From: Campylobacterota bacterium
GTDB taxonomy: Bacteria; Campylobacterota; Campylobacteria; Campylobacterales; Thiovulaceae
Assembly (NCBI GenBank): GCA_030152305.1
Contig: JASKOM010000001.1
Location: 201,174 to 265,173 of the forward strand
Direction of reading: 5' to 3'
DNA: 64,000 bases
Part shown: positions 1,667-57,550 of the stretch, in pieces
Layout of the letters: every line of letters starts with the position of its first letter
Numbering within the stretch: position 1 is the stretch's first letter
Notes under the pieces: model-generated
What the model saw: only the letters and a program-made list of their open reading frames with translations
Told to the model about the DNA's origin: nothing
Database searches by the model: none
Translations under genes and position numbers: made by a program

Positions 1667-2944
1667 TTAAAAATAATTAGTTAGCGATAATAAAACGATT
1701 AATAAAACTGGCGGAGTAATTATTAACCCAAATTTCGAATATTCCCAGAAAGTGATTTTTACACCTTTTCGTTCAAGAACATGAAGCCATAACAAAGTTG
1801 CAAGAGATCCAAACGGTGTCATTTTTGGACCTAAATTACAACCGATAATATTTGCATAAGCTAAATTTAAATAATCTGTATTAGTTAATACTATATCGCC
1901 TAAAGCTATATCCATAATCATAACTGTTGGCAAATTATTCATAATTGCACTTAAAAATGCTGATAAAAATCCTGTGCCAATGATTGCCAAATTATTATCA
2001 ATTTCGATTAATTTAATGATAATATTTTTTATTTCTTCAGTTAAACCTGCATTTTTTAAACCATAAACAACAATATATAAACCGATACTAAACCAGACAA
2101 TTTGCCACGGAGCTGTTTTTATCGTGAGCATAAATTTTGCAACTTTCAAATAAGAAGCAATGCCTAAAAAAATAATTCCACCTGATAAAGCAAATAACGA
2201 AATCGGTAAATTAAATTCATCGCCAATAAAATATAAAATTAATAAAATAGCTAAAAATATCCAACTCCAATAAAATAACTTTTTATTTTTTAGAACCTCA
2301 TCGGGATTTTTTAATAAATTAATATCGATGAGGTCTGGAATATCTCGCCATAAAATTAATAATAAAAATATTAACGAAGCAATGACACTTACAAAAAACG
2401 GAAAAGTCATATCAATTAAATATTCTAAAAAGCCAATATCAAAATATTCAGCCGTAATAATATTAGTTAAATTCGAAAAAACAAATGGCAACGAAGCCGA
2501 ATCGCTTATAAAACCACCAGCCAATAAAAAAGCAACAATCGTTTTGAAATTTAAATTTAATATTCGCATTTTTGAAAGCAAAATTGGAGTTAAAATTAAA
2601 ACTGCTCCATCATTTGCAAAAAGTGCTGAAACGATTGAACCTAAAATTATCGTATAAACGAACATTAATTTACCGTTGCCTTTTGATAATTTTGCCATTT
2701 TAATAGCTAACCATTCAAAAAAGCCAATTTCATCAAAAACCATTGATAAAATTATTATTCCAATTAATGTTAAAGTTGAATCCCAAACGATATTTGTTAC
2801 ATCGATCATGTCATTAAACGAAACAGTTCCGACTAAAAACGAGATAACAGCTCCAATAATTGCTGAAGTCCCAATTTGAATATTATACGGTCTCCAAATA
2901 ATCGCTACAAGAGTAACGACAAAAATAGAAAAAGGCAATAACAT
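1667..2944 (-). CDS. arsB: arsenical pump membrane protein ArsB (ArsB/NhaD permease family)
   Basis: 425-aa polytopic membrane protein. Long collinear matches to E. coli ArsB as I remember it: FANDGAVLILTPI, APWQIVWFSIGLYIVVYGLKNAGLTE, GTGFLSAFLSAIMNNLPTV, IGCNLGPKMTPFGSLATLLWLHVL. Confidence 0.85.
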   Translation of the reverse strand: MLLPFSIFVVTLVAIIWRPYNIQIGTSAIIGAVISFLVGTVSFNDMIDVTNIVWDSTLTLIGIIILSMVFDEIGFFEWLAIKMAKLSKGNGKLMFVYTIILGSIVSALFANDGAVLILTPILLSKMRILNLNFKTIVAFLLAGGFISDSASLPFVFSNLTNIITAEYFDIGFLEYLIDMTFPFFVSVIASLIFLLLILWRDIPDLIDINLLKNPDEVLKNKKLFYWSWIFLAILLILYFIGDEFNLPISLFALSGGIIFLGIASYLKVAKFMLTIKTAPWQIVWFSIGLYIVVYGLKNAGLTEEIKNIIIKLIEIDNNLAIIGTGFLSAFLSAIMNNLPTVMIMDIALGDIVLTNTDYLNLAYANIIGCNLGPKMTPFGSLATLLWLHVLERKGVKITFWEYSKFGLIITPPVLLIVLLSLTNYF

Positions 2945-8966: not shown

Positions 8967-8970
8967 TTCT

Positions 8971-11944: not shown

Positions 11945-11963
11945 AATTCTTAAGTTTTCTTTT

Positions 11964-12030
11964 CTTCGATGATGTTTAGTTTTTATTAATTAAAACCTCA
12001 TCGGGGAATTTGGGATAGAATTACAGCAAA
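11964..12030. repeat. junction repeat copy a (imperfect GATGATGT/ACCTCATC hairpin plus G/A-rich tail)
   Basis: ttcgatgatgtttagtttttattaattaaaacctcatcggggaatttgggataga. Homologous to 14158-14230 and more loosely to 30731-30822. Probably the terminator of the Type IIG gene. Confidence 0.55.
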
Positions 12031-12052
12031 ATATAACTAGCAAGATAAAAAT

Positions 12053-12580
12053 ATGAGACAAGAAAAAATTAATTATATACAAGCAGTTGTAACAGAAATA
12101 AGAAAGTATTTTCAATTAAAAGATTTTTTATCAAGAGAAGATTTAACTAATTTAGTGGAAAAATTAGAAGGTAGTTTAGAATTTCAATTTGACTTAGATG
12201 TTGATGCTAAAATAGAAAGAATAGATAAAAATTTTAAGATTACTATTAAACCGTCTAACTTAGCATTAAGAGACAACTTTAGTATAGCTCATGAGTTGGG
12301 GCATTTATTTTTACATATGGGTTATCTAATAGATAATAACATGTGGATGAACTCTAAGCTTAGATATGATCGTTTTGGTTATTCTCAAGAAGAATTTGAA
12401 GCAAATGAGTTTGCAGGTAATTTACTTATGCAAGAACATTTGTTTATTAAAGAATTTAGAAACAATTATGACTCTAAACAGCAAGTAGTTAATCTAAAAA
12501 AAATGAGCAAAATATTTAATGTTTCTCCAAAAGCAATTGAAGTTCGTGCCAAAAATATAGGTTTGATTAAACAGTGTTAG
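12053..12580 (+). CDS. ImmA/IrrE-family (COG2856-like) zinc metallopeptidase
   Basis: 175 aa. HEXXH in SIAHELGHLFLH, followed by the family-typical EEFEANEFAGNLLM. The stop overlaps the GTG start of the next ORF (gtgttag). Confidence 0.75.
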   Translation: MRQEKINYIQAVVTEIRKYFQLKDFLSREDLTNLVEKLEGSLEFQFDLDVDAKIERIDKNFKITIKPSNLALRDNFSIAHELGHLFLHMGYLIDNNMWMNSKLRYDRFGYSQEEFEANEFAGNLLMQEHLFIKEFRNNYDSKQQVVNLKKMSKIFNVSPKAIEVRAKNIGLIKQC

Positions 12581-13200
12581 AAGATTTAAGCAATAACTTA
12601 CAAACTGTCAATCGAGAACATACTAATAAAGATGAGTCTGGAGTATTCGTATTTTTCTCTTTTGATCTTGTTAATTCAACACTGTTTAAAACATTACATC
12701 AAAATAATTGGTTTGTTTTTATTAAAGAATTTTATGATTCCATCATATCTATTCGAAAACATGAACCTACCATTACATTATGGAAATATGTTGGTGATGA
12801 GGTCTTATTTTATAAAAAAATATTAGACAAAAACGAAATTTATAATTTATTATTAAAAACTAGAGAAATCATAGATTATACAGAGCGAAAACTACAAGAA
12901 ATTGATCTTATAGAACAAGAATCAAATAAATGTAAAACAAATTTAGATATAAAACTATATGTCAAAGCAACTTTATGGATTGCAAAAGCTTCAAAAAATG
13001 TAAAAGGATCAAAAAATATTGTTATTGATACTGAAAAAGGTCTTGATTTTATAGGAGAAGATATTGATTTAGGCTTTAGAATATCTAAATATTCATTTGA
13101 TTCAAAAATAGTTCTTGATGCAATAATCACTTATATGCTGATCAAACAGGAACATGAAATAAAAAAGAAATATCATATATCAATAAGGCACATATATTAA
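12574..13200 (+). CDS. class III nucleotidyl-cyclase-like domain protein (5' part of a frameshifted gene)
   Basis: 208 aa. FFSFDLVNST matches the FaDivGfT metal-Asp strand, WKYVGDEVLFY matches the K-x-iGD strand, and FIGEDIDLGFRISKYSFDSKIVL matches the G-x-x-VN-x-A-x-R segment. The final cyclase strands continue in the +1 frame from 13187. Confidence 0.5.
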   Translation: MLEDLSNNLQTVNREHTNKDESGVFVFFSFDLVNSTLFKTLHQNNWFVFIKEFYDSIISIRKHEPTITLWKYVGDEVLFYKKILDKNEIYNLLLKTREIIDYTERKLQEIDLIEQESNKCKTNLDIKLYVKATLWIAKASKNVKGSKNIVIDTEKGLDFIGEDIDLGFRISKYSFDSKIVLDAIITYMLIKQEHEIKKKYHISIRHIY

Positions 13201-13288
13201 AATCGTTTCATTTGAAGAGTTAAAAGGTGTTTGGAACAGTAGAAAATATCCCATCATTTGGTATGACGAATCGTGGGATATTCAAAAG

Positions 13289-13900
13289 ATGTTTAAATAT
13301 GATGATAGATTTAATAATAAAATCGTTGAAAATATTATAAATGGTTCTTTTTCTAAATATTCAAATATTATAGATTTAGAGCATATTTTAAAAGATTTAA
13401 ATAAGCTTGATTTAGTTCAAGATTTAGAATTAACAATTAAGAATACTAAAAAGACAAAACCTATTTTAGAAAAGAAATTATCAGAAATACATTGTGTAGC
13501 TATCAGCTTCTATGAAACAAAAGTATTAATTGGTAAACGAAAAGCAAATAAAGAACTATTGCCAAATGTATGGGATTTTGGTTGTGCAAAAATGGGATTT
13601 AAGGATACATTTCAAGATGCAATAAAACGAGATTATAAAACGGATTTCAATGTAGATTTAATTTTAGAAGAAAATGATTTAACACCTATTGCAACATATA
13701 CAATAGAAAAATCTTCTGTTTCTGGTGTAATATTTGTGGCTAAAATTCATGACATTAGTATATTAAAATCTAATAAACATAGTGAATCTAAAATGTTAGA
13801 TATTGCTGAAGTTAAAGATTTCATAAATAATAATGAAACTATTCCAAATTTTGAATCTACTATAAATAAAGCATACGAATTATTCATAAAAAAATTTTAA
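13289..13900 (+). CDS. 3' part of the same gene: end of the cyclase domain, linker, and a degenerate Nudix-like domain
   Basis: This frame is already open from 13187 (GTYIKIVSFEELKGVWNSRKYPIIWYDESW...). The C-terminal VLIGKRKANKELLPNVWDFGCAKMGFKDTFQDAIKRDYKTDFNV follows the Nudix layout, but the Nudix-box glutamates are largely replaced (RDYKTD instead of RExxEE). Confidence 0.4.
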   Translation: MFKYDDRFNNKIVENIINGSFSKYSNIIDLEHILKDLNKLDLVQDLELTIKNTKKTKPILEKKLSEIHCVAISFYETKVLIGKRKANKELLPNVWDFGCAKMGFKDTFQDAIKRDYKTDFNVDLILEENDLTPIATYTIEKSSVSGVIFVAKIHDISILKSNKHSESKMLDIAEVKDFINNNETIPNFESTINKAYELFIKKF

Positions 13901-14157: not shown

Positions 14158-14230
14158 ATTCGATGAGGTCTAGTTTTTATGAAATCTCATCGAAGAGAAT
14201 TTGAGATTTGAGAGTAGCGAAGTTTTATAG
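14158..14230. repeat. junction repeat copy b (GATGAGGT / ATCTCATC hairpin plus GAGAATTTGAGATTTGAGAG tail)
   Basis: ttcgatgaggtctagtttttatgaaatctcatcgaagagaatttgagatttgagagtagcgaagtt. Homologous to copy a and to 30731-30822. Confidence 0.55.
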
Positions 14231-21938: not shown

Positions 21939-22823
21939 TCAACCTCCGAAGAAGTTATCTTTTTTGCTTCCTGATGAACTTGAACTTGAGCTTGATGACG
22001 AAGAAGAAGAAGTTGATGGAGAAGATTTTGTTAGATCTGGTTTTGATGATGAGGTCGAACTTTGAGTTGTTGAAGCAGGACTTGAACTAGAAGTAGAAGA
22101 ACTTGATGTTCCACCAAAGAAACTTTGTTTTGTAGCAGGTGTTGCAGTTGCTTTTGTGCTTGTTCCAGAACTTCCCATATTGTTATTATTAGCATTGTTT
22201 GGGTTATTGCCATAATTATTATTAGCATTGTTTGGATTATTGCCATAATTATTATTACCACCGTTTGGATTTGGAGAACCGTGATAACCAGAAGGTGAAT
22301 TATAAGATGATTGTCTAGATTGATAATTTGAATTATTCGAAAGCATATTAGCGGCAACACCACCAAGAAGAGCACCAGCCGCACCAGCTAATAATAATTC
22401 ACCCATTCCGAAACCTTCATCTTCAGCTTTTGGTTGAGCATTTGGCGAAGTCAAATTCGATGTATTATTTTCAACTTTTTTCATTTCAGCTTCAGCAAAC
22501 TGTTTCATTTCAGCTTCGTTCATAACTTTTGTTGTGCCATTTATATCAGTAACAATTGCTTGATTTGGACCAGTTGTTGGAGTTGATTCAACAATTTTAT
22601 ATTGCCCTGGAGCGGTTTCCTGAATTCGTAAAATTTTATTTTCAGCTGGTTTTTGAACTTCAGCTTCTGGCTTTTTTTCTTCTTCAGTAGATGCACAACC
22701 AATACCAAACATGGCAGTTAAAACACTAATCGTAAGTGATCCGATAACTTTTTTTGATTCTTTTGACACGAAATGTTTCATAACAGTTTCCTCTCTAGTT
22801 ATTTTATAAATTTTAGCTTTCAT
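21939..22823 (-). CDS. low-complexity lipoprotein (Asn/Gly/Ser-rich)
   Basis: Lipobox MFGIGCAS (the likely real start is the internal MKHFVSK). The C-terminal half is N/G/S/T low complexity, including NNYGNNPNNAN repeats and poly-Ser. Confidence 0.6.
   Translation of the reverse strand: MKAKIYKITREETVMKHFVSKESKKVIGSLTISVLTAMFGIGCASTEEEKKPEAEVQKPAENKILRIQETAPGQYKIVESTPTTGPNQAIVTDINGTTKVMNEAEMKQFAEAEMKKVENNTSNLTSPNAQPKAEDEGFGMGELLLAGAAGALLGGVAANMLSNNSNYQSRQSSYNSPSGYHGSPNPNGGNNNYGNNPNNANNNYGNNPNNANNNNMGSSGTSTKATATPATKQSFFGGTSSSSTSSSSPASTTQSSTSSSKPDLTKSSPSTSSSSSSSSSSSSSGSKKDNFFGG
22183..22260. repeat. 33-bp tandem repeat (2 full units plus a partial) inside the lipoprotein gene
   Basis: ttattattagcattgtttgg(g/a)ttattgccataa starts at 22183 and again at 22216. 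It encodes the 11-aa NNYGNNPNNAN repeat on the minus strand. Confidence 0.7.
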
Positions 22824-25678: not shown

Positions 25679-27517
25679 ATGGCTAAACATGAATTTCAAA
25701 CCGAAATCAATCAGCTTTTAAATCTAATGATTCATTCTCTTTATTCAAATAAAGAGATTTTTTTACGAGAACTTGTTTCAAATAGTTCCGATGCAATCGA
25801 TAAATTAAAGTTTTTAACCGTAACAGATGACAATTATCGAAATATATCTTTTCAGCCAAAAATCGAGATTAAAATCGATAAAAATGCTAAGACTATCACA
25901 ATTAGCGATACTGGAATCGGTATGAACGATGAAGAACTTGTTGCACATTTAGGAACAATTGCAAAATCTGGAACAAAAGCTTTTGTTGAACAAATGAGCG
26001 GAGATGCAAAAAAAGATTCTCAACTTATTGGTCAATTCGGTGTAGGTTTTTATTCTGCTTTTATGGTTGCTGATAAAATCGAAGTTTTAACAAAACGAGC
26101 AAACGAAACTCGAGCTTTCAAATGGATAAGTTCAGGCAATGGCGGTTATGAAATCGTTGAATCTCAAAAAAATAATTACGGAACTGAAATTACTTTATTT
26201 GTCAAAGAAGACGAAAACGAATTTTTATCTGATCACAAAATCGAATCGATAATTAAAAAATATTCAAATCATGTTCCGTTTCCAATTTTCTTAGAAAAAG
26301 AGGTTGAATCTGAAACAGAAAATAGCGACGAAACAACTAGCAAAACTGAACAAATCAATAAAGCTTCTGCTCTTTGGACTTTAAATAAAGCTGAATTAAC
26401 CGACGAAGATTATAAAGACTTTTACGGCACAATCGCACATTCAAGCGAAGAACCATTATATTGGATTCATTCTCGAGTTGAAGGAACACTTGATTATACG
26501 ACTTTATTTTATGTTCCTGCAAAAGCACCAATGGATTTATATCGAGCTGATTGGGAAAGTGGCTTAAAGCTTTATATTAAACGAGTCTTTATTTCTGATG
26601 GCGAACGAGAACTTCTTCCGACTTATTTACGATTTGTTCGTGGTGTTGTTGATTCAGCGGATCTTCCGTTAAATGTTTCTCGAGAAATTTTACAAAATAA
26701 CCGAGTTCTCGAAAAAATCAAGACCTCATCAATCAAAAAAATATTATCTGAACTTGCTAAATTCTCAAAAAATGACGAAGAAAAATATGCAATTTTTTAT
26801 AAAGAATTTGGTAAAACGATAAAAGAAGGTCTTTATACAGATCATGCAAATCGAGATGCAATTCTTGATTTATTAAAATTTAAATCGCTTAACGGTGATA
26901 ATATTACTCTTAAAGCCTATAAAGAAAAAATGGCTGAAGGTCAAACAGAAATTTATTATCTAGCTGGTGAAAACGAAAAAATTCTCAAAAATTCGCCAAT
27001 TCTCGAACAGTTCAAAGCGAAAAAATATAATGTCTTGATTCTTGATCAAGAAGTCGATTCTATCGTTTTCCCAATGGTTCATGAATATGACAAAACTCCG
27101 TTTAAAGCTGTTTCTGAAGCTGTTTTCGAAAAAAGCAATGACGATCAAAATCATCAATCTGTGATTAATTTGTTTAAAAATGTTCTTGGCGATGAGGTTT
27201 CGGCTGTCAAAGTTTCGAAAATTCTTGTTGATGCTCCTGTTTGTATCGTAAATGATCCAGAAGATCAAAATTATATGATGGCAAAAATCATGAAACAAAT
27301 GGGCAATGCTGAAAATATTCCTGATGTAAAACCGATTCTCGAAATTAATCCAAACAATGCAATTATTAAAAAAATTGCTGAAAATCAAAATCGTGAAGCA
27401 GTCGAAGATAGCATTAAATTATTAATGGATCAAGCTAGATTATATAACGGCGAAGAATTAAAAGATTCAGTTGAGTTTTTAGCTAGATTAAATCGAACAC
27501 TTTTACGAGCTAATTAA
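25679..27517 (+). CDS. htpG: molecular chaperone HtpG (Hsp90)
   Basis: 612 aa. HSLYSNKEIFLRELVSNSSDA and GQFGVGFYSAF. Confidence 0.95.
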   Translation: MAKHEFQTEINQLLNLMIHSLYSNKEIFLRELVSNSSDAIDKLKFLTVTDDNYRNISFQPKIEIKIDKNAKTITISDTGIGMNDEELVAHLGTIAKSGTKAFVEQMSGDAKKDSQLIGQFGVGFYSAFMVADKIEVLTKRANETRAFKWISSGNGGYEIVESQKNNYGTEITLFVKEDENEFLSDHKIESIIKKYSNHVPFPIFLEKEVESETENSDETTSKTEQINKASALWTLNKAELTDEDYKDFYGTIAHSSEEPLYWIHSRVEGTLDYTTLFYVPAKAPMDLYRADWESGLKLYIKRVFISDGERELLPTYLRFVRGVVDSADLPLNVSREILQNNRVLEKIKTSSIKKILSELAKFSKNDEEKYAIFYKEFGKTIKEGLYTDHANRDAILDLLKFKSLNGDNITLKAYKEKMAEGQTEIYYLAGENEKILKNSPILEQFKAKKYNVLILDQEVDSIVFPMVHEYDKTPFKAVSEAVFEKSNDDQNHQSVINLFKNVLGDEVSAVKVSKILVDAPVCIVNDPEDQNYMMAKIMKQMGNAENIPDVKPILEINPNNAIIKKIAENQNREAVEDSIKLLMDQARLYNGEELKDSVEFLARLNRTLLRAN

Positions 27518-27527
27518 TTTTAAAAAA

Positions 27528-28364
27528 TTGAGTTCAAAACTATTAATTATCGAACGAGTCGTAGATTTAAAAAAAATTCTAGCTGACAAAAAAAATCGTT
27601 CGGTTGGCTTTGTTCCCACAATGGGAGCATTGCATAATGGACATCGAACATTAATCGAACGGGCGAGAGCCGAAAACGATTTTGTCGTTGTCTCAATCTT
27701 TGTTAATCCTACACAATTTCTCGAAGGTGAAGATTTCTCGAAATATCCGCGAACCTTTGAGAAAGATCATGAAATTTGCCGTCTTGCAAATGTTGATATT
27801 ATATTTTTGCCAACTGTCAATGAAATTTATAAAAGTGATGATATTTCTGTAATTTCTCCTATTAAACGGGGCTATATTCTCGAAGGGTTCAGTCGTCCAA
27901 ATCATTTTAACGGAGTTTTGACAGTCGTTTTAAAATTATTTAATATCGTTCAGCCGACAAAAGCATATTTTGGAAAAAAAGATGCACAGCAACTAATTTT
28001 AATAAATCAAATGGTTCAGGATTTATATTTAAATATCGAAATAGTTCCTATCGATATCGTTCGCGATCGTGATGGAGTTGCTTTAAGTTCAAGAAATGTT
28101 TATTTGTCGCAAGACGACCGAATAATTGCAAGAGCGATACCTAATTCGTTAATTTCAGCTTCAAAATTAATTATGACTGGCGAACGAAATATTATAAAAA
28201 TCGAAACTCATATTAAAAACGAATTGAAAAATTTGCAAATAGAATATGTCTCTATTTTAAAACGGGATTTAACTCAAATTGATCAAATCGAAATGGGAAA
28301 TTCAATTATATTAATCGCTTGTAAAGTTGGCGGTGTTCGACTTATTGATAACTTATGGATTTAA
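27528..28364 (+). CDS. panC: pantoate--beta-alanine ligase
   Basis: 278 aa, TTG start. VPTMGALHNGH, FGKKDAQQ, SSRN. Confidence 0.93.
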   Translation: MSSKLLIIERVVDLKKILADKKNRSVGFVPTMGALHNGHRTLIERARAENDFVVVSIFVNPTQFLEGEDFSKYPRTFEKDHEICRLANVDIIFLPTVNEIYKSDDISVISPIKRGYILEGFSRPNHFNGVLTVVLKLFNIVQPTKAYFGKKDAQQLILINQMVQDLYLNIEIVPIDIVRDRDGVALSSRNVYLSQDDRIIARAIPNSLISASKLIMTGERNIIKIETHIKNELKNLQIEYVSILKRDLTQIDQIEMGNSIILIACKVGGVRLIDNLWI

Positions 28365-28381
28365 GTTTTTATCATCAAAAT

Positions 28382-28422
28382 ACCTCATCGCAAAAAATAT
28401 TTTTAAAATTTAGTGATGAGGT
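28382..28422. terminator. inverted pair of the ACCTCATC/GATGAGGT motif forming a hairpin after panC
   Basis: tacctcatc-(N24)-gatgaggta gives 9-bp perfect arms, 18 nt after the panC stop and at the left edge of the RM cassette. Confidence 0.5.
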
Positions 28423-28454
28423 AATTAGAAAAATTATTTAAAGTAAAAGGATAG

Positions 28455-29558
28455 ATGAACAAATATAAAACTATTGATCTATTTTGCGGAATAGGTGGTA
28501 TCAGAAAAGGTTTTGAATTAACAGGTCATTTTGACAATATTTTATCTGCCGAAATTGACAAATATGCCTGTGCGACTTACAAACATCTTTATGGCGACAA
28601 TCCATTTAATGATGTAACAAGTGATAAATTTAAAGAAAAAATACAGCAATCTTATTATGATGTTTTACTTGCGGGTTTTCCGTGTCAGTCCTTTTCAATA
28701 GCAGGAGATAAAAAAGGATTTCGAGATACTACAAGAGGGACACTATTTTTTCATATAGCAGATATTATCAAAATTAGTAAGCCAAAAGCTTTTTTGCTTG
28801 AAAATGTTGAAGGTTTATATAGACATGATAAAGGAAATACTTTTAAGATTATTATTAATACTTTGGTTAAAGAGTTGAATTATAAAGTTGTTGGTGTTGA
28901 TGAGGTCGATGGAGAATTGAAATACATTTCAGAATCTTTTTTACGAAAAACAACAGATTTTGGCTTACCACAAAAAAGAGTTAGAACTTATATCGTTGGA
29001 TTTTTAAATGAAATAGTTCCTGATAATTATAAATTAAAACCTTTGCCACATAAAAATAATAAAACGATTTTTAAAAACTTAAATAATCTACTAGAACAAG
29101 ATGTATCTGCAAAATATTATTTGTCAGAACAGTATATAAATACACTTGAAAAACATAAAGCAACTCATAAATCTAAAGGTAATGGATTCGGATATAAAAT
29201 TGTTAATATTGGAGAAAATCCTATTGCAAATACAATTTTGGCAACAGGTGGCAGTGGAAAAGAAAGAAATTTAATTTTTCAAGAAAAACCTGAATACAAT
29301 GGTCAAATGTTTGGTAATAAACAAAGTCCAATTAATGACCAAGGTATAAGAACAATGACACCAAATGAATGGGCAAGGCTTCAAGGATTTAAAGATTATG
29401 CTTTTATGCAAAATGGTATTGATACTTTTTCATTTCCTCAAGAAGTTAGTGAAACCCAACAATATAAACAGTTAGGTAACAGTGTTTCAATTCCTGTTAT
29501 TGAAGAATTAGCAAATTATATTTTTCAAACTTTAGAGGATTTACAAAATGGGATTTAA
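28455..29558 (+). CDS. DNA (cytosine-5)-methyltransferase
   Basis: 367 aa. Motif I DLFCGIGG, motif IV GFPCQSFS, motif VI ENV, motif VIII QKRVR, motif X GNSVSIPV. Confidence 0.93.
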   Translation: MNKYKTIDLFCGIGGIRKGFELTGHFDNILSAEIDKYACATYKHLYGDNPFNDVTSDKFKEKIQQSYYDVLLAGFPCQSFSIAGDKKGFRDTTRGTLFFHIADIIKISKPKAFLLENVEGLYRHDKGNTFKIIINTLVKELNYKVVGVDEVDGELKYISESFLRKTTDFGLPQKRVRTYIVGFLNEIVPDNYKLKPLPHKNNKTIFKNLNNLLEQDVSAKYYLSEQYINTLEKHKATHKSKGNGFGYKIVNIGENPIANTILATGGSGKERNLIFQEKPEYNGQMFGNKQSPINDQGIRTMTPNEWARLQGFKDYAFMQNGIDTFSFPQEVSETQQYKQLGNSVSIPVIEELANYIFQTLEDLQNGI

Positions 29559-30572
29559 TAAAGGAGAGTGGTCTGAATTATATACAATTTTATATTTACT
29601 TAAAAATCAAAATTTAATTATAGTTGATGAAAACTTGCAAATTATAACAGACAAATTATTTAAATTATTGGAAATACTTTTCAGTGATAAGAAATATAAA
29701 ATAGATAATAGTTATGTAATAAAAATTTTTAACAATAGTGATAAAAGTCAAAATTATCAAATTAGCTATTTATCTGAACAAATGAATATATTATTAAATA
29801 AAATAGTTAGTCATCAACAAGCCAACGGTTCATTTCAAATTGCTGAAATTCAACCTTTAATTAACGATTTTTTGATGGTAAAAAACCTAAAGGTAGTTCA
29901 AATATAAAGGCAGATTTGGAAACTAAGGTTTTAGACAACCATCGTAATATGGCAATATTGCTTAAATATAATATTAAGTCAAACTTGGGAAATCCTGCAA
30001 CATTATTAAATGCTTCTAATCATACGAATTTTATCTATGAAGTAACTAATATTAATGATTCTATTATGTATCAATCTAATGCTATAAGCACTCATAAAAA
30101 ACTATTGGATAAATACAATTTCTTAAAAAACAACAAAGCTAGTATTAATTTTGTTAATACAGAAAGCGAAGTTTTTAAAAATAACTTAAAATTAATTGAC
30201 TCAAAGCTTGACGAAATACTGGCTAAGATACTATTAATATCTTATGATAATAACAACAAAGATATAAATGAACTTTTGTCAATAATTTCAGTTAATGATT
30301 ATGAACATATGTTTTATAAAAAGAAAATAGGTGATTTTGCAAATGCGGTTACTTTTGGAATGAGAGCAGGAGAAATATGGAATGGCATAAATGAAGTTAA
30401 TGGAGGTATTTTACTTGTTACAAAAACAGGAGAAGTATATTTACTTGATTTAATTTATTACAAATATATTGTTGATAGATATTTAATTGATAACATTAAG
30501 CTAGATAGTCCTAGTTCTACTAGATATAAAATGTTTGATATTTATAAAGAAAATGATAGATATTTTTTTTAA
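29548..30572 (+). pseudogene. HpaII-like Type II restriction endonuclease, split by a frameshift at a T-run (about 29868-29874)
   Basis: ORF1 starts with NKGEWSELYTILYLLK. ORF2's frame is open from 29865 and reads FFDGKKPKGSSNIKADLETKV...NIKSNLGNPATLLNASNHTNFIYEV. Both halves match the HpaII-family pattern as I recall it. The frames differ by one nucleotide around gattttttgatgg. Confidence 0.6.
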
Positions 30573-30730
30573 GTTAAATTTACAAATAAGATTTAAATAA
30601 CTGCCATTTGAAAATATTTTCAAATAAATTAAAATTAAATAAGTTAATAAGAATAAATTCGTGGAATTTAAAAAAAAGAAGATTTTCGTCATCCTGAAGC
30701 GGTATCTCTTGTAACTTGTTTCTGGATCTT

Positions 30731-30822
30731 TTGATTTTTGTGTAGTTTGTTAAAAAGAGGAAAACCTCATCGGCGAGAAATAGATTTTTAAATCTAGCGA
30801 TTAGGTTTTGAGAGAAGTTAGT
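30731..30822. repeat. junction repeat copy c (degenerate left arm, ACCTCATC, GA-rich tail)
   Basis: ttgatttttgtgtagtttgttaaaaagaggaaaacctcatcggcgagaaatagatttttaaatctagcgattaggttttgagagaagttag. Similar to copies a and b. Sits at the right edge of the RM cassette. Confidence 0.4.
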
Positions 30823-30825
30823 TAG

Positions 30826-31302
30826 CTAAATGGCTATTTTTAATGTAGGTCTTTCGACTTTATAAACTGATGATGTGTCATTTGAACATCTTCGACCACA
30901 ATTAGGACATCTACTGCTATTAATCCATATGTCATTATTATCAGAACCAAATTTTTTGTTATATAGTTCAATAGTTTCATACCAAGCATTTTTTAAATTT
31001 TCAGCATCTTCTTTACCTCGCATTCCAAAATATGGAAAATGATGTAAAAAATGACCAAAAATCATATCACAATCTTCTTGATATTTTAGGGTATCCAATA
31101 TATGAAAATGCCAAAATTCATCTACTGGTTTCGCTGGAACAATCGCTAAATTTGAATATTCTAAACAAAGGGACAAATATTTTTTATATTCTATTTCAAT
31201 TTGTTTTGCATATTCAAAAGACCAACCTAGTCCTTCATCATTATCCATTAGCTTAATAATAATTGGATCTAAGTTTAAAGAATTTATTTTTTCTTCGATC
31301 AT
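30826..31302 (-). CDS. hypothetical protein with a DUF1399-like (glycine-rich-domain-protein-like) core
   Basis: 158 aa. EFWHFHILDTLKYQEDCDMIFGHFLHHFPY resembles the fWHxHxLxTxxYxxxC signature. C-terminal CPNCGRRC. Confidence 0.4.
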   Translation of the reverse strand: MIEEKINSLNLDPIIIKLMDNDEGLGWSFEYAKQIEIEYKKYLSLCLEYSNLAIVPAKPVDEFWHFHILDTLKYQEDCDMIFGHFLHHFPYFGMRGKEDAENLKNAWYETIELYNKKFGSDNNDIWINSSRCPNCGRRCSNDTSSVYKVERPTLKIAI

Positions 31303-31329
31303 ATTTCTATACCTTTATTTTGTAACAAA

Positions 31330-31566
31330 CTATTTTTTTATACACTCGTATATTATTTTACATTTATAACTATTACCGTTGTTCCTTTTTTCACATATTT
31401 TATCAATGATTTTGACAGTGTTGTTACTTGAACAATTTACTTGGTAATGAGCATTTGTTGTAGCATGACTTATTGTTCCGCCATTGCCTTCAGCTGTTTG
31501 CCCCCACAAGTTAGAAGTTAACCCAATTGCAACAAAACCTAAAAAGGCTAACTTTTTGAATTTCAT
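31330..31566 (-). CDS. small secreted cysteine-containing protein (hypothetical)
   Basis: 78 aa. Signal peptide (MKFKKLAFLGFVAIGLTSNLWGQ). The mature part has 4 Cys (C45, C58, C69, C75). Lies immediately upstream of, and co-oriented with, 30826-31302. Confidence 0.45.
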   Translation of the reverse strand: MKFKKLAFLGFVAIGLTSNLWGQTAEGNGGTISHATTNAHYQVNCSSNNTVKIIDKICEKRNNGNSYKCKIIYECIKK

Positions 31567-31780
31567 TTTTCAAACTCCTATTTTTTACAATCAATTTATA
31601 TTTCACCCGTCAAAAAACGAGCTGTCAAATTGTAAAAAAAAAACGGTTTTGTCAAATCGAGTTTTAAATTAATAAATATTTAACAAAAATAGTTTTATAA
31701 ATACGTTTCACGGTTAAAATAGTTAAGTTCAATTTTTGCATATCACAGCAAAGTATATTTACAAAACACAACTAAACAAA

Positions 31781-31811
31781 CTTGACATAGCTAGACTCAA
31801 TGTTGTAATAT
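31781..31811 (+). promoter_or_regulatory. clpB promoter (TTGACA-N18-TAATAT) overlapped by a HAIR-like inverted repeat
   Basis: CTTGACA-tagctag-ACTCAAT matches 11 of 14 positions of the HspR HAIR consensus CTTGAGT-N7-ACTCAAG. The -10 TAATAT is at 31806-31811 and the ATG at 31848. Confidence 0.4.
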
Positions 31812-31847
31812 TTCGCACGAAAATTTAAAATTAAATTGGAGTGAAAT

Positions 31848-34352
31848 ATGGCAAATATTTTAGAAAAACTTACCTCATCGCTAAATGAAAATCTCGAAAA
31901 AAGTATTTCGTTGGCACTTTCTTCAGGCAACAGCGAAATTGAACCTATTCATCTATTTTGGAATTTAACAGTTGAAACAAATTCTATTTTACGACAGGCT
32001 CTTAATAAATTAGGCGAAGAACCACGAAATTATGAATTAAAAATTAAAAGCGAAATATCTAAATTATCAAGTAGCACAGGTTTAACAAAAGATAATATAA
32101 AAATTTCAAGACGAATGATCGATTCGTTAAATAAAGCCGAAGCCGTTGCAACTCAAAACGGTGATAAATATATCGCTGTTGATAGTTGGATTGAAGCAAA
32201 TATAAAAGATTATAAAAATATTTTTGTTAATTACATGGAAATTGTTAAAACTTTGAATTCGATTCGTGGCGGTCAAAAAATAGATTCTCAAACTGGTGAT
32301 GAAAATTTAGAAGCACTTGCAAAATTTACGATCGATTTAAATAAAAAAGCTATCGAAGGCAAATTAGATCCTGTGATTGGTCGCGACGAAGAAATCGAAC
32401 GAACTATTCAAATATTAATTAGAAAAACGAAAAATAATCCTATTTTATTAGGCGAACCAGGAGTCGGGAAAACGGCACTTGTCGAAGGTTTAGCTTCTCG
32501 AATTGTTCGAGGCGATGTGCCAAATTCTTTAAAAAATAAAAAAATATTAAATTTAGATATGACTTCGCTTGTTGCTGGTGCAAAATATCGAGGCGAATTC
32601 GAAGATCGTCTTCAGGCAGTTGTTCGAGAAGTTAAAAATGCTGGAAATATTATTTTATTTATCGATGAAATTCATGTAATTATTGGTGCTGGTGCAAGTG
32701 AAGGAAGCATGGATGCCGCGAATATTCTTAAACCTGCTCTTGCTCGTGGCGAATTGCGAACAATTGGAGCAACGACATTAAAAGAATATAGAAAATATTT
32801 CGAAAAAGATACGGCTTTGCAACGACGATTTCAACCTGTTAATCTCTCTGAACCGACAGTCCCTCAAGCTTTGCAAATTTTACGGGGCTTAAAAGAGCGA
32901 CTCGAAACTCATCATAATATTTCGATTACAGATTCGGCTCTTGTTTCGGCTGTTAAATTAAGCGACAGATATATTTCTGATCGTTTTTTACCTGATAAAG
33001 CTATTGATTTAATTGACGAAGCATCAGCTGAATTACGAATGCAAATCGAAAGCGAACCTTTTCCACTTTCTCAAGCTAAAAGATTAATTGCTCAAATTCG
33101 TGTTGAACAAGAAGCTTTAAAAATGGAAGGTGTCGAAAAAAATCGTCTCGATGAGGTTGAAAAAGAGTTAGCTTTTGCTGAAAAACGACGAGCCGATCTC
33201 GAAGAAAAATTTGAAAATGAAAAACGAGTTTTTAAACAAATTGCTGATACAAAAAGCGAAATCGAATCTAAAAAAAGCGAAATTTCAAGATTAGAATCTG
33301 AAGGCAAATATGAATCTGTTGCTAAATTAAAATATGGAACTATTCCTGATCTTGAAAAAAGAGTTGATTTATTAATTAAAAGTTGGGATGAAATGCAAAA
33401 AACTGGAACTTTATTAAAAAATAAAGTTGATGATGAAAGCATTGCAAAAGTTTTAAGTCGATGGACTGGAATTCCTGTTTCAAAAATGTTGCAATCCGAA
33501 CGAGACAAAATTATAAATATCGAAGAATATTTAAATAAAGAGGTAATTTCTCAAGAAAATGCAATTCGGGCAGTTGCAAAAGCGATTAAACGAAATCGAG
33601 CAGGTTTATCAGATGGCAATCGTCCAATTGGTAGCTTTTTATTTTTAGGTTCAACAGGTGTTGGAAAAACCGAAACAGCAAAAGCATTAGCTAGATTTTT
33701 ATTTGATAGCGAAAATTCGATGATCAGATTTGACATGAGCGAATATATGGAAAAACATTCTGTTTCGAAATTAATTGGTGCTTCAGCTGGTTATGTCGGC
33801 TACGACGAAGGCGGTCAATTAACTGAAGCAGTTCGACGAAAACCGTATTCTGTTTTATTGTTCGACGAAATCGAAAAGGCTCATCGAGATGTTTGGAATA
33901 TTTTATTACAGGTTCTTGACGATGGCAGATTGACAGATAATAAAGGTGTTACAGTTGATTTTCGAAATACGATCGTTATTTTGACTTCGAATTTGCAACA
34001 AGATAAATTAGGCGAATTTTTCAGACCTGAATTTTTAAATCGACTTGACGAAATCGTTAATTTTAAACGACTTGAACAAAACGATATTATTAAAATTCTC
34101 GAGATTTTTATTAAAAAGATTGAGAAAAAAGTTGCTGAACGAGGCTTAAAAATATCGCTTTCAGGTTCGGCAAAAAATTATATTGCAAATATTGGTTTCG
34201 ATGAGGTTTATGGAGCAAGACCATTAAAACGAGCTTTATACGAAGAAATCGAAGATCGACTTGCTGATTTAATTCTCGAAGATAAAATAAAAGATGGCGA
34301 TTTGATAAATTTTGATTTTGTTAATAACGAAATAGTTACAAAAATAAATTAA
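31848..34352 (+). CDS. clpB: ATP-dependent chaperone ClpB
   Basis: 834 aa. Two AAA+ modules (GEPGVGKTA; GSTGVGKTE), a long middle coiled coil, and the GARPLKR sensor. Confidence 0.95.
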
Positions 34353-36257: not shown

Positions 36258-39200
36258 TTATAAGTTTGGAACTTCTGGAGCTCTTGGAAGAATTCTATTA
36301 GATGCATCTTCAATATAAATCTCTTTCAAGAATGTTTGAGTTGCATTTGTTTCATTATCTTTAACTGTTAAAGTAATTTCATGATTACCAGAAACATTTG
36401 ACTCAAAAGTTACATTCGCTTCAGTTGAAAACCTATTTTGAACTCCAGAACTATTTTCGTCTAAATAATAATCAAACCACTCATAGCTGTAATTACCATC
36501 AACTGGTGATAAATCAGCTGAAAGAGAGTAACTATTGCCATTTTGTATTTCATTGATTCCATAAAGTGAGAAATCTGGAACAGCAATTGATGAAGCATCA
36601 AATCTTGAAAGATTGACATCAACTGAACCAGTTTTATTTACTGGAACAGACATTGCTTTAAGCTTAAATTCATCTTTCAAATCAAAATCTGGATAGATAA
36701 TATAAGTTCCTGACACTAAATCTGTAAATTCAGCTTGACCTTGAGAATTTGTCATTTTTGTTGAAAGCAATTGATAAGAATCTGTGTAAAGCGATACATA
36801 GTAATCTGTTAATGCTGAACACTCTTTACCGTTTTCTTCGCAACCATTTAAATTAACTGTTAAGCTATTTGGTGTTTCACCAGCAGGAAGCCATTTAATT
36901 TGATAGTCTCTTGTCCAATCATAAGCATAATTTGGATTAATTGCCATGAGGTAGAAATTATTCACACCTTTATGTAATTTAATTGGATAGTTTTGAATTA
37001 TATAAGAATGTTCGCTTTGTTTTGTAACAAAATTAGATGAAGTGTTAATTTCGTAAAGATCATCATTTGTTATATAGAAAAGTCTTGCACTATGGTTTAT
37101 ATCTAAAAGTTTTAAATCAAAGTTACTTACAGTTGCATTTAATTCAAAAACACCATTTGCATTATTAACTAATGTTGGTAAGTTTCCAACTGTGTCAAAT
37201 AAAGGAGCACCAGAAACAGCACTTTCGCCTTGTAACATGATAATTGTCATATCAACTTGTGCAGTTTGTGCAGATGGAACCGTAACAGGAATTTTGTCAG
37301 AGTAACCTCTAAGTTTGCCATCTTTATCAAGTTGAAGAGCAACAAGTTTATAAGTTTCTTTAGCTTTTAAGTTTTCAAGAACATATTCAACTTTGCTGTC
37401 TTTAACATAAGCAGTAGCAGTGTTGATATATAAATTATCAGAGTTATAAACATCTACAAGAATTATTGAGCCTTCATAACCTGAAAGATTTGCATCAAGA
37501 ATCGATCCTTTAATATGTCCAATATTTGGATCATATTTAACAAATGTGCTTGATGATCGGCTGATACCTAATTGGTTAGCAACTTCAAAATAGACTTCAT
37601 TAACACCAATTTCAAGAGGCAATTCAAATTCATATTTTGTTGAATCGCCATCAACTGTTGATGATTTTTTGAATTTAACTTCTTTGCTATTAACATACGG
37701 AGTAATTACAGCACTACTTGTTAATGCTTTAACATCACTTGTATTGTTACCTGATAATTTGTCAAATGTTTCAATAAATACTTTTGTATTGCCTTTTTCC
37801 ATATCAACTTTATAATCGCTGATAGTTGTTGAAGCTTTTCGTGTTGGCTCTTCGTTGCTATTTACCAATTTAATAGTAATTTCTCGATTAGCAGAGAAGT
37901 TATTAACTGTTTTAATAGAAGCGATATAGCTTGTTGTTGTTTGATTAGGAACTTCAACTCGAACTATTCTGTTAGAGCTTCCACCGCCAATAACATTTGA
38001 GAATACTGCTGTTGAACCTTGAATTTTTGCAATTGATTGCGATTCTTCTAAGTTTTGAGCTGTTTTGATACCATCAACAGATACGACTGCATCGCTAATT
38101 GGATTGTTTGTTTCAGCATCAACAACTTTTACAGTTAATGTATATGTTGGTTTTGATTTAATTGAAAGATCAACTCGTTTAATATCTTCTCGCTCTGCTG
38201 TTTTAACATCATCGATTTTGAAACTTGGAACATTAATTGAAGAAGAATCAAAATAGCCTAATTTACTAGCTTGAATTCGAAGTAAAGAGATGCTTTCGTC
38301 TGATTTGAATTGACTGAAATCCATTTCAACAGGTGAGAATTGGCATAAACCGACTCTATCTGTAACATCATATTGAATAGCTGGAGTATAAACAGGTTTA
38401 GATGACACAACTCGATCAATTACGATGTAATCTTTGAATGTTTTGTTAGAACCTTCACCGCTTGATTTAAAGCTCATTTGTCCTCTACCTCTTAAAAAGA
38501 AGTTTTGATTATTCTCTTTAACAGTAAGCGACAATGTTGGAATCATATCTAGTGTGAAACCGTCGTCAAAAACATTTTTATTTGGTGATTTAGCAGTTTT
38601 AGAAACATTTGCTTCAGTTAAAACTTCTGAAAGAGGCATTGCTAGTTTTTCTAAGAATTTATTAGAACTTACAATTTGAGCAATTTTATCGATGAATAGT
38701 TTGGTGTTATCTGACTTTTGAACAGAAATTAATTCAGGAATATTTTCTTGATCTAAATTTGTGTTTGCAGTTGAACCATCACCATTAATTTTTACCCATT
38801 TAAAGCCACCTTGACCATTTGGAGCAACAGCTAAATTAATAGAGCTATCATCAGCCAATTTAACAGCAGTAATAACAATAAAGCCCCAATCTACATAATT
38901 TGTAGTGTAATCTTCTGGATTAAATACAGTGCCGTAATTTGCTCTAAGATATTTAACGGTTTTATTTCCGATAATTTTCATTGAAGTTGATATTTCGTCT
39001 GCTGACAATTCGTCATTTAATGCATTATAGTGAGTAATTTTTAAATTATCTAATGTATTAAAAATTGAGGTATTTTCTGCTTCCGTATTAAATCCATTGA
39101 TTTTTAGCCATTGTCCATTATTTAACTCATTTGTTTTAATAGCAAAACTTTTTACAGGATCTGAAAACTCGCTTGTAGCTTCTTCATACATTTTTGCAAG

Positions 39201-57519: not shown

Positions 57520-57550
57520 ACCTCATCAAAAAATAATATCTTGATGAGGT
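57520..57550. terminator. perfect 10-bp hairpin made of an ACCTCATC/GATGAGGT inverted pair, downstream of acs
   Basis: acctcatcaa-(11 nt)-ttgatgaggt lies 17 nt after the acs stop (minus strand). It is followed on the minus strand by T-rich sequence. Confidence 0.6.

What the first reader, a model, noticed from the sequence alone, without database searches (positions are those of the whole stretch)
28382..28422. Inverted motif pair forms the panC terminator and marks the left edge of an RM cassette
tACCTCATCgc...gtGATGAGGTa gives 9-bp perfect arms around an AT-rich 24-nt spacer that itself contains aaaaatattttt. It lies 18 nt after the panC stop and 33 nt before the methyltransferase gene. Uptake sequences in Neisseria and Haemophilus are typically found as inverted pairs doubling as transcription terminators. 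The same architecture here supports the DUS-like reading. It also suggests the motif pairs are hot spots where foreign cassettes are integrated after uptake.
Basis: partly seen in the sequence, partly recalled or inferred. Interest (0 to 1): 0.6.

Follow-up and report, generated by a model that had tools for sequence, protein, structure and literature searches.

The report
Uptake-signal-like hairpin flanking a restriction-modification cassette
The hairpin after panC is real and is built from two inverted copies of an 8-base word that saturates this uncultured Campylobacterota genome much as DNA-uptake sequences do; a diverged second copy lies on the other side of a restriction-modification gene pair, so it looks more like a terminator duplicated when the cassette inserted than a working panC terminator.

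Summary
TACCTCATC (28381-28389) and GATGAGGTA (28415-28423) are perfect 9-bp inverted arms. As RNA they extend to an 11-bp stem with a 21-nt loop (-15.3 kcal/mol, z -5.45).

The arms are copies of ACCTCATC. This word occurs 44 times in 64 kb against 0.67 expected, on both strands equally and in several reading frames. 16 of 17 Asp-Glu-Val tripeptides are spelled with it although GAG is only 8% of Glu codons. It is enriched 40-50x in relatives with 62-77% PanC identity and not enriched in more distant Campylobacterota. This is the statistical signature of a DNA uptake sequence; uptake itself is untested.

The terminator claim is weak. The + strand has no U tract and the loop is 21 nt. The T-rich tail lies on the opposite strand.

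The new result is a second, degenerate copy of the same ~62-bp hairpin module at 30761-30824. It lies just beyond the HpaII-type methylase/endonuclease pair and abuts the stop of a convergent gene. The cassette is therefore bracketed by direct repeats, as in "insertion with long target duplication".

A general integration hot spot is not supported. The same cassette sits at unrelated, motif-free sites in Aliarcobacter and other lineages.

The parts
28381..28389 (+). Left arm TACCTCATC (motif core 28382-28389)
28390..28414 (+). 25-nt AT-rich spacer holding the palindrome AAAAATATTTTT; its two outer bases extend the stem, leaving a 21-nt loop
28415..28423 (+). Right arm GATGAGGTA (reverse-complement motif core 28415-28422)
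28379..28440 (+). DR-L: left copy of the ~62-bp hairpin module that flanks the RM unit
27528..28364 (+). panC (pantoate-beta-alanine ligase); stop codon ends 16 nt before the hairpin
28455..29558 (+). C5 cytosine DNA methyltransferase, M.HpaII-like; 80-82% identical to Aliarcobacter, Sulfurovum and Sulfurimonas homologues; carries one motif copy at 28899
29548..30600 (+). HpaII-type restriction endonuclease, 62-72% identical to an intact 349-aa homologue, broken by two frameshifts at T runs (about 29870 and 30560); called as ORFs 29548-29907 and 29916-30572
30761..30824 (+). DR-R: right copy of the hairpin module, in the same orientation as DR-L; ends 1 nt before the orf158 stop codon
30764..30806 (.). 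Degenerate motif pair ACCTCATCG...CGATTAGGT (one mismatch in the second arm) with T-rich tails on both strands; likely bidirectional terminator between the endonuclease gene and orf158
30826..31302 (-). orf158, glycine-rich-domain protein (PF27765), convergent with the cassette; best homologues 63% identical, and the few named ones are beta/gamma-proteobacteria
57520..57550 (-). Second perfect motif pair: 12-bp stem, 7-nt loop, UUUUAUAUUU tail, 16 nt after the acs stop; a canonical intrinsic terminator
2295..2334 (.). Third perfect motif pair, lying inside the arsB-family coding sequence (Asp-Glu-Val ... Asp-Leu-Ile); not a terminator

Best explanation
The hairpin is an inverted pair (ACCTCATC then GATGAGGT) of a clade-specific octamer maintained at the DNA level at about 0.7 copies per kb. 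The best available reading of that octamer is a DNA-uptake-sequence-like self signal of an uncultured Campylobacterota lineage. In intergenic DNA such copies mostly occur as inverted pairs that fold into gene-end hairpins.

This particular hairpin is one of two diverged direct copies of a ~62-bp module that bracket a 2.3-kb HpaII-type RM unit. The most likely history has three steps. A single motif-pair hairpin first served as the bidirectional terminator between convergent panC and orf158. The RM unit then inserted next to it with a long target duplication. The right copy kept T-rich tails on both sides and still ends orf158 and the endonuclease gene. The left copy kept only the tail that faces the wrong way and now sits in front of the methylase gene as, at best, a leaky terminator or 3'-end stabiliser for panC.

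Shown: the hairpin, the motif statistics, the codon-level drive, the clade distribution, the flanking repeat and the tail asymmetry. Inferred: uptake function, the duplication event and its direction, and the present transcriptional role.
For: Motif as a genome-wide DNA-level signal:
- 44 copies against 0.67 expected.
- 23 on the + strand and 21 on the - strand.
- 35 copies lie in coding sequence in five frame/orientation classes and 9 are intergenic, which is 20% of copies in 7.4% of the sequence.
- 16 of 17 DEV tripeptides are coded GATGAGGT although GAG is 8.4% of Glu codons (P = 8e-18). 7 of 20 TSS tripeptides are coded ACCTCATC.
- In relatives 25 of 28 DEV use the motif; in control lineages 8 of 33 do.
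- Spacing is more even than random (CV 0.69, P = 0.008).

Clade specificity:
- The motif is enriched 40-50x in loci from lineages with 62-77% PanC identity.
- It is not enriched in loci whose ClpB is 59-66% identical or in Aliarcobacter-type loci.

Hairpins:
- 7 of 9 intergenic copies have an inverted partner with at most one mismatch.
- The acs pair is a canonical terminator.

Flanking repeat:
- 28379-28440 aligns with 30761-30824 at 47 of 65 columns.
- The loops alone score 9 against -3.5 +/- 2.9 for shuffles (P = 2e-4). That score is reached by 0.15% of real intergenic 27-mers.
- The pair ranks 4th of 2343 motif-anchored comparisons, and the top three are true orthologues or paralogues.
- Similarity holds only in direct orientation. 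No further copy exists in about 140 kb of clade DNA.

Tails: the right copy has T-rich tails on both strands (-3.54 and -4.14). The left copy has one only on the minus strand (-4.31 against -2.38).

Precedent: RM units flanked by direct repeats longer than 30 bp, without mobility genes, are documented mostly in naturally competent species, including Helicobacter and Campylobacter (PMC2853133).
Against: - No empty site could be found. The closest PanC in 5.8 billion proteins is 77% identical, and its genome has a different gene directly after panC with no hairpin.
- The repeat copies are only about 72% identical, lower than nearly all published long-target-duplication cases. AT-rich DNA gives many chance 20-45-nt matches at 70-75% identity.
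- orf158 looks horizontally acquired itself, so the supposed ancestral junction is uncertain.
- One-mismatch variants of the motif are at background level (75 against 75.6). They are enriched in Haemophilus and Neisseria (my own knowledge).
- Relatives show few intergenic copies and no terminator pairs in 75 kb.
- No competence genes or uptake data are available.
- Hairpins without U tails are common at gene ends in this window. Lack of a tail therefore does not exclude a 3'-end function.
Confidence: 0.5

Rival explanations
1. The hairpin is a working Rho-independent terminator of panC built from an uptake-sequence pair. Such pairs are preferred landing sites for foreign cassettes brought in by transformation.
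For: A stable hairpin lies 16 nt after the stop codon. Another motif pair is a textbook terminator. USS and DUS pairs act as terminators in Neisseria and Pasteurellaceae (PMC1852404). Motif hairpins lie at both edges of this RM unit and after the Type IIG RM gene at 11968-12002.
Against: The + strand has no U tract, the loop is 21 nt, and the TransTermHP-style hairpin score is +4.3. The methylase gene starts 31 nt downstream with no consensus promoter. The same cassette sits at unrelated, motif-free sites elsewhere. One pair lies inside a coding gene. The cassette is old: CCGG is avoided, the methylase has gained a motif, and the repeats have diverged.
Confidence: 0.2
2. The two hairpins are independent. 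Both are ordinary gene-end hairpins that happened to be built from the abundant motif, and their loop similarity reflects chance or AT-rich convergence. The RM unit arrived by some other route, such as homologous replacement or illegitimate recombination, without duplication.
For: Intergenic motif copies are usually paired. Chance AT-rich direct matches of 20-45 nt at 70-75% identity abound in the same region. Identity between the copies is only about 72%. The pair was examined post hoc.
Against: The loop alignment reaches P about 2e-4 to 1.5e-3 against shuffles and real intergenic DNA. The pair is the best non-homologous one among 2343. Similarity runs on into the 18-nt tail and exists only in direct orientation. 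Loops of the other pairs do not align.
Confidence: 0.25
3. The octamer is not an uptake signal. It is kept abundant by another genome-wide process, and the hairpins are by-products of its abundance. Candidate processes are a binding site for an abundant DNA-binding protein, a methylation- or repair-linked word like cyanobacterial HIP1, or biased mismatch correction.
For: One-mismatch variants are not enriched, unlike classical USS and DUS (my own knowledge). That fits conversion or strict selection better than a leaky uptake drive. No competence data exist. Known self-DNA discrimination in Campylobacter uses methylated RAATTY, not an enriched motif (PMC8468864). HIP1 shows that an abundant octamer need not be a classical uptake sequence.
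Against: Density, strand symmetry, multi-frame coding use, even spacing, clade specificity and +- pair bias together match the USS/DUS pattern (PMC1852404, PMC2817400). The 23:21 interleaved strand distribution rules out Chi- or KOPS-type polar signals. Non-conserved flanks rule out REP or MITE repeats.
Confidence: 0.3
4. The hairpins are terminal repeats of a small mobile unit, either MITE-like or the cassette's own ends, that carries the RM genes.
For: Direct repeats flank exactly the M+R pair plus 160-190 nt of unassigned spacer.
Against: No other copy exists in the window or in 75 kb of relatives. Cassettes in other genomes have no such ends. DR-R abuts the stop of a resident gene and has terminator tails. 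No transposase or integrase is nearby.
Confidence: 0.08

Closest known systems
DNA uptake sequences: Neisseriaceae DUS (GCCGTCTGAA) and Pasteurellaceae USS (AAGTGCGGT / ACAAGCGGT), including their inverted pairs in terminators
   Same: A short word at roughly one copy per kb, equal on both strands. It is embedded in coding DNA in preferred frames through codon choice and shared by a family-level clade. There is an excess of closely spaced pairs in one configuration (+-), and some pairs form gene-end terminators (PMC1852404; PMC2817400).
   Different: Different phylum (Campylobacterota) and an unrelated 8-nt sequence. There is almost no extended flank apart from a purine after the motif. One-mismatch variants are not enriched. 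The loop is long (15-25 nt, against 10 nt or less in Neisseria). Relatives show few intergenic pairs. Uptake bias, receptor and competence are untested. Only Neisseriaceae and Pasteurellaceae are known to use such motifs (PMC12616744).
[quoted passage not shown] 2010, PMC2853133)
   Same: An M+R pair with no mobility gene, an insert under 20 kb, flanked by direct repeats longer than 30 bp, in an epsilon-proteobacterial lineage.
   Different: The repeats here are about 72% identical, against mostly over 85% in published cases. No empty site is available. The duplicated target is itself a motif-pair hairpin, which was not a feature of the published cases as far as I read them.
Rho-independent (intrinsic) terminators
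   Same: A stable stem directly after a stop codon. The sister element at 57520-57550 fits the class fully.
   Different: This copy has a 21-nt loop and no U tract on the sense strand. It fails a consensus scan and TransTermHP-style scoring.
HIP1 (GCGATCGC), the highly iterated palindrome of cyanobacteria
   Same: An octamer at about one copy per kb, maintained against codon preference, recently linked to transformation efficiency (bioRxiv 10.1101/2024.09.10.611283, listed).
   Different: HIP1 is a palindrome and a methylation site. ACCTCATC is asymmetric, and its methylation status is unknown.
Methylation-dependent self-DNA recognition in Campylobacter jejuni (CtsM, RAATTY)
   Same: Self/non-self discrimination at DNA uptake in the same phylum (PMC8468864).
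   Different: RAATTY is a common hexamer that needs no genomic enrichment. Here a rare GC-rich octamer is enriched about 50-fold.

Membership tests
DNA uptake sequence (DUS/USS) | Short motif over-represented genome-wide at roughly one copy per kb | tested here: met
   44 copies in 64 kb against 0.67 expected. 93 copies in 139 kb of clade DNA against a mean of 3.3 for 8-mers of the same composition.
DNA uptake sequence (DUS/USS) | About equal numbers on both strands, with no replichore or transcription polarity | tested here: met
   23 on + and 21 on -, interleaved. 16 coding copies are in sense orientation and 19 antisense. Only 64 kb was seen.
DNA uptake sequence (DUS/USS) | Embedded in coding sequence in a few preferred frames, shaping codon and tripeptide use | tested here: met
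   DEV 16, TSS 7, xLI 8, other 4. 16 of 17 DEV tripeptides use the rare GAG codon. Relatives 25 of 28, controls 8 of 33.
DNA uptake sequence (DUS/USS) | Shared by a clade of related species and absent outside it | tested here: met
   Enriched in L002, L008, L218 and L221. Not enriched in L014-L017 or L138-L217.
DNA uptake sequence (DUS/USS) | Excess of closely spaced inverted pairs in one configuration, many at gene ends | tested here: inconclusive
   In the window, 3 perfect +- pairs against 0.32 expected and 0 perfect -+ pairs. 7 of 9 intergenic copies are paired. One pair is intragenic. None occurs at gene ends in 75 kb of relatives.
DNA uptake sequence (DUS/USS) | Many one-mismatch copies alongside perfect ones, as in Haemophilus and Neisseria (from my own knowledge of those genomes) | tested here: not met
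   One-off variants total 75 against 75.6 expected.
DNA uptake sequence (DUS/USS) | Competent cells preferentially bind and take up motif-bearing DNA; a specific receptor exists | not testable with these tools
   Uncultured lineage. No competence genes among the window genes annotated.
Rho-independent terminator | Stable stem-loop just downstream of a stop codon | tested here: met
   11-bp stem, -15.3 kcal/mol, z -5.45, 16 nt after the panC stop.
Rho-independent terminator | Short loop and favourable overall hairpin score | tested here: not met
   21-nt loop. Score +4.3 with the TransTermHP parameters, against -9.2 for the acs hairpin.
Rho-independent terminator | U-rich tract immediately 3' of the stem on the transcribed strand | tested here: not met
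   The + tail AUUAGAAAAAUUAUU scores -2.38. The minus-strand tail scores -4.31. The consensus scan found 0 terminators in 27000-32000.
Rho-independent terminator | Transcript 3' ends at the site | not testable with these tools
   No RNA data.
RM insertion with long target duplication (criteria of PMC2853133) | Both R and M homologues lie in the inserted segment | tested here: met
   PF00145 and PF09561 between the repeats. The endonuclease is frameshifted.
RM insertion with long target duplication (criteria of PMC2853133) | Insert under 20 kb and no mobility genes | tested here: met
   28441-30760 is 2320 bp and holds only M and R.
RM insertion with long target duplication (criteria of PMC2853133) | Flanking direct repeat longer than 30 bp | tested here: met
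   About 62 bp, 47 of 65 columns identical, P about 1e-3 to 2e-4. Identity is lower than in published cases.
RM insertion with long target duplication (criteria of PMC2853133) | A related genome shows the empty site with one copy of the repeat | tested here: inconclusive
   The nearest PanC is 77% identical and its locus has a different downstream gene and no hairpin. The orf158 homologues are distant.

The most novel reading that the evidence does not exclude
ACCTCATC is a genuine DNA uptake sequence of an uncultured Campylobacterota clade. That would be the third independent origin of sequence-specific DNA uptake, after Neisseriaceae and Pasteurellaceae, and the first in a phylum where self-recognition is otherwise known only through methylation. 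Its inverted pairs would serve both as gene-end hairpins and as the duplicated targets of RM-unit insertion.
Probability: 0.4. Interest if true: 0.8.

Novelty: new member of a known kind. Interest (0 to 1): 0.6.

Why it matters
Only two bacterial families are known to mark their own DNA with an enriched uptake motif (PMC12616744). A third, unrelated case in Campylobacterota, detectable from sequence alone, would open several tests:
- whether uptake specificity evolves readily;
- which receptor replaces ComP;
- how such motifs get co-opted as terminators.

The bracketed RM unit adds a dated, internally controlled example of RM insertion with target duplication at a terminator. It also shows that motif gain (amelioration) acts on acquired genes. 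For annotation, hairpins made of this motif should not be called terminators automatically.

Tried and rejected
1. A genome-contig scan with PanC found no relative.
It was a wasted scan.
3. A metagenome scan with ClpB returned only relatives at 66% identity or less. These serve as negative controls but give no empty site.
4. Extending the flanking repeat into the 3' end of panC: the best alignment scored 27, P = 0.09, and lay out of register. Rejected.
5. Chi- or KOPS-like polar signal: rejected by the 23:21 interleaved strand distribution.
6. REP or MITE repeat: rejected because the flanks of the 44 copies are not conserved and no further copy of the 62-bp module exists.
7. Protein-motif or codon artefact: rejected because the word occurs in five frame/orientation classes and uses rare codons.
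8. Integron attC: considered and dropped on reading the sequence, since the arms lack the RYYYAAC/GTTRRRY cores.
9. Known RNA family: none at Rfam gathering thresholds anywhere in the window.
10. Flanking direct repeats around the cassette in Aliarcobacter-type loci: only chance-level AT-rich matches.
11. Literature search for ACCTCATC or GATGAGGT, or for uptake sequences in Campylobacterota or Epsilonproteobacteria: nothing relevant.
12. PADLOC and Pfam gave no function for orf158 or orf78 beyond the precomputed PF27765 hit.

Full report
OBSERVATION.
The sequence at 28381-28423 reads TACCTCATC-gcaaaaaatatttttaaaatttagt-GATGAGGTA. The arms are perfect 9-bp inverted repeats. A G.U and a C-G pair lengthen the stem to 11 bp around a 21-nt loop.

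As RNA the stem-loop has -15.3 kcal/mol and z = -5.45, and none of 200 shuffles is as stable. Three minor corrections apply. The spacer is 25 nt, not 24. The motif begins 17 nt after the last base of the panC stop (28364), not 18. It ends 32 nt before the methylase ATG (28455), not 33.

The neighbouring genes are as described: panC (PF02569), a C5 cytosine methylase (PF00145) and an HpaII-type endonuclease (PF09561).

THE MOTIF BEHIND THE ARMS.
ACCTCATC occurs 44 times in the 64-kb, 29.7% GC window against 0.67 expected. Of 45 CCTCATC copies, 44 are preceded by A. The next base is a purine in 41 of 44. Flanks are otherwise unconserved, so this is not a REP- or MITE-type repeat.

Copies are split 23 on + and 21 on -, interleaved, with no bias relative to gene direction (16 sense, 19 antisense). 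This excludes Chi- or KOPS-like polar signals.

Thirty-five copies lie in coding sequence in five frame/orientation classes: Asp-Glu-Val 16, Thr-Ser-Ser 7, x-Leu-Ile 8, others 4. Nine lie in the 7.4% of the window that is intergenic.

The word is imposed at the DNA level.
- 16 of 17 DEV tripeptides are spelled GAT-GAG-GTN although GAG is only 8.4% of Glu codons (P = 8e-18).
- 7 of 20 TSS tripeptides are spelled ACC-TCA-TCN against 0.2 expected.

Spacing is more even than random (CV 0.69 against 0.98, P = 0.008). One-mismatch variants are at background level (75 against 75.6 in 139 kb of clade DNA).

WHO CARRIES IT.
PanC places the window in Campylobacterota. The best named hits are Arcobacter and Sulfuricurvum at about 56% identity. 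The nearest sequence of any kind is 77% identical.

Loci from four other lineages with PanC 62-77% identical show the same octamer at 0.4-0.9 per kb. In most of them it is at or near the top of the over-represented 8-mers. There, 25 of 28 DEV tripeptides use it.

Three groups of loci lack the enrichment:
- a lineage at 64% identity has only 3 copies in 21 kb;
- Campylobacterota loci whose ClpB is 59-66% identical;
- Aliarcobacter-type loci, where 8 of 33 DEV use the word, as codon usage predicts.

Two motif positions in htpG are conserved between the window and the 77% relative. I found no paper mentioning the word, nor any uptake sequence in this phylum.

The ensemble is the published signature of DUS and USS (PMC1852404; PMC2817400). 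It comprises density, strand symmetry, multi-frame coding use, clade specificity and paired copies at gene ends. Only Neisseriaceae and Pasteurellaceae are known to use such motifs (PMC12616744). The one known discrimination system in Campylobacter works through methylated RAATTY (PMC8468864). Uptake itself cannot be tested here. The absence of enriched one-off variants differs from the classical cases.

INVERTED PAIRS.
The window has three perfect close pairs, all in the order ACCTCATC...GATGAGGT, against 0.32 expected (P = 0.004).
- The pair at 57520-57550 is a textbook terminator for acs on the minus strand. It has a 12-bp stem, a 7-nt loop, a UUUUAUAUUU tail, a hairpin score of -9.2 and a tail score of -4.39.
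- The pair at 2295-2334 lies inside a bona fide arsB-family gene, with the Pfam match spanning residues 6-422. It cannot be a terminator.
- The panC pair is the third.

Allowing one mismatch, 7 of the 9 intergenic copies have an inverted partner. These include opposite-configuration hairpins after the Type IIG RM gene (11968-12002) and at 14162-14191. In 75 kb from relatives, intergenic copies are few (4 of 49) and unpaired.

IS IT THE panC TERMINATOR?
Position and stability fit. The rest does not.
- The loop is 21 nt.
- With the TransTermHP parameters the hairpin scores +4.3.
- The + strand tail is AUUAGAAAAAUUAUU (-2.38).
- A consensus scan finds no terminator in 27000-32000 and no sigma-70-like promoter between the hairpin and the methylase ATG 31 nt away.

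The good T tail (UUUUGAUGAU, -4.31) lies on the minus strand, where no gene now runs into the hairpin. Stable gene-end hairpins without U tails are common in this window, for example after clpB, mutS-like and 21939-22823. A role as a 3'-end stabiliser or weak terminator therefore cannot be excluded. Only RNA 3'-end data can decide.

THE RM CASSETTE AND ITS TWO EDGES.
The methylase is 80-82% identical to homologues in Aliarcobacter, Sulfurovum and Sulfurimonas, while PanC is only about 56% identical to those taxa. The unit has therefore moved horizontally within the phylum.

In three other genomic contexts the same M+R pair, with an intact 349-aa endonuclease, sits between unrelated genes. Those loci show no motif enrichment (0-1 copies each, none at the cassette edges) and no flanking repeats above chance.

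In the window the endonuclease carries two frameshifts, both at T runs, and its original stop is near 30600. This may be real decay, phase variation or homopolymer sequencing error.

The unit is not recent, for two reasons.
- CCGG, the HpaII site, occurs twice against about 28-31 expected.
- The methylase has a motif copy at 28899 (DEV, GATGAGGT) where Aliarcobacter has DEI (GATGAAAT).

The right edge holds the decisive new observation. At 30764-30806 lies ACCTCATCG-N25-CGATTAGGT, a motif pair with one mismatch. It sits 19 nt from the stop of the convergent gene orf158 and has T-rich tails on both strands.

The segment 30761-30824 aligns with 28379-28440 in direct orientation at 47 of 65 columns.
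- The loops alone, excluding the shared arms, score 9 against -3.5 +/- 2.9 for shuffles (P = 2e-4). Only 0.15% of real intergenic 27-mers reach that score.
- Among 2343 comparisons of motif-anchored 64-mers, this pair ranks fourth. The three above it are true orthologues or paralogues.
- The reverse orientation and the loops of the other pairs do not align.
- No further copy exists in the window or in relatives.
- The similarity does not extend into the 3' end of panC.

The 2.3-kb M+R unit is thus bracketed by diverged direct repeats of a hairpin module, with no mobility gene. It meets the published criteria for 'insertion with long target duplication'. That mode is seen mostly in naturally competent bacteria, including Helicobacter and Campylobacter (PMC2853133). 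The empty-site comparison cannot be made, because the nearest relatives have other genes directly after panC.

The tail pattern fits a history in which one bidirectional terminator between panC and orf158 was duplicated. DR-R keeps both tails. DR-L keeps only the tail that served the minus strand.

VERDICT.

The uptake-sequence-like character of the motif is well supported statistically but functionally unproven; I put it at about 0.4-0.5.

The left-edge claim is supported and extended to a matching right edge. I give the repeat homology about 0.7 and the target-duplication mechanism about 0.45.

The panC terminator claim is doubtful; I give efficient termination about 0.3. The integration hot-spot generalisation is not supported.

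The object is a new member of two known kinds: uptake-sequence-pair hairpins, and RM units with long target duplication. It lies in a lineage where neither has been described together.

Noticed in passing
whole window; CCGG only at 6376 and 46913: Extreme avoidance of GC-rich 4-bp palindromes. CCGG occurs 2 times against about 28-31 expected, GGCC 3 against 41, GCGC 2 against 27, while CGCG is normal (28 against 25). Relatives L002 and L008 also avoid CCGG; L218 does not. This suggests long exposure to HpaII-, HaeIII- and HhaI-type RM systems.
   Followed up: partly
window 29860-29880 and 30550-30570: The HpaII-type endonuclease gene is broken by two frameshifts, both in homopolymer T runs. 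The cause could be genuine decay, phase variation or homopolymer sequencing error. The intact homologue is 349 aa.
   Followed up: partly
window 5976-13900: A probable defence cluster. It holds a MutS-like protein with a C-terminal DUF968/HNH region (996 aa), a Type IIG restriction-methylase (962 aa, PADLOC 4.8e-163), a CapP/RmrA-like protein (12053-12580) and a PDC-S07-like protein. A degenerate motif hairpin follows the Type IIG gene at 11968-12002.
   Followed up: no
window about 4284-4347 vs 5457-5520 (motif copies at 4288 and 5461): The stretches beside the motif copies at 4288 (inside the antA antirepressor gene) and 5461 (intergenic) are near-identical: score 91 of a possible 128 over 64 nt. 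This is a local partial duplication.
   Followed up: no
window coding regions vs L002, L008, L218, L221: Glu codon usage differs sharply. GAG is 8.4% of Glu codons in the window but about 42% in the pooled relatives, despite similar GC content. In the window at least 16 of the 119 GAG codons lie inside the motif.
   Followed up: no
window 30826-31566 (minus strand): orf158 is a PF27765 glycine-rich-domain protein. Its best homologues are 63% identical, and the few named ones are beta/gamma-proteobacteria (Moraxella, Nitrosomonas, Stenoxybacter, Wielerella). Together with orf78, the whole panC-clpB interval looks accessory.
   Followed up: partly
window 36258-41423 (minus strand): A 1721-aa ORF with no Pfam match at E <= 1e-5. 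It is followed, after a gap holding only a 78-aa ORF, by a 1031-aa PKD-domain protein.
   Followed up: no
window 53602-55591: An IS605 OrfB-type helix-turn-helix ORF (210 aa) is followed by a 441-aa ORF without a Pfam hit. This may be a split or divergent TnpB-like element.
   Followed up: no
L218 11701-11719: In a relative, two perfect motif copies in the opposite configuration (GATGAGGT-N3-ACCTCATC) lie inside a murG-like gene.
   Followed up: no
L001 (Logan contig of SRR24719468), end corresponds to window about 30645: The independent Logan assembly of the same locus ends about 45 nt after the original endonuclease stop, inside the spacer before DR-R. The exact orf158 protein is on record only from NCBI, not from Logan. 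This may reflect population heterogeneity or a low-complexity break at the right junction.
   Followed up: no
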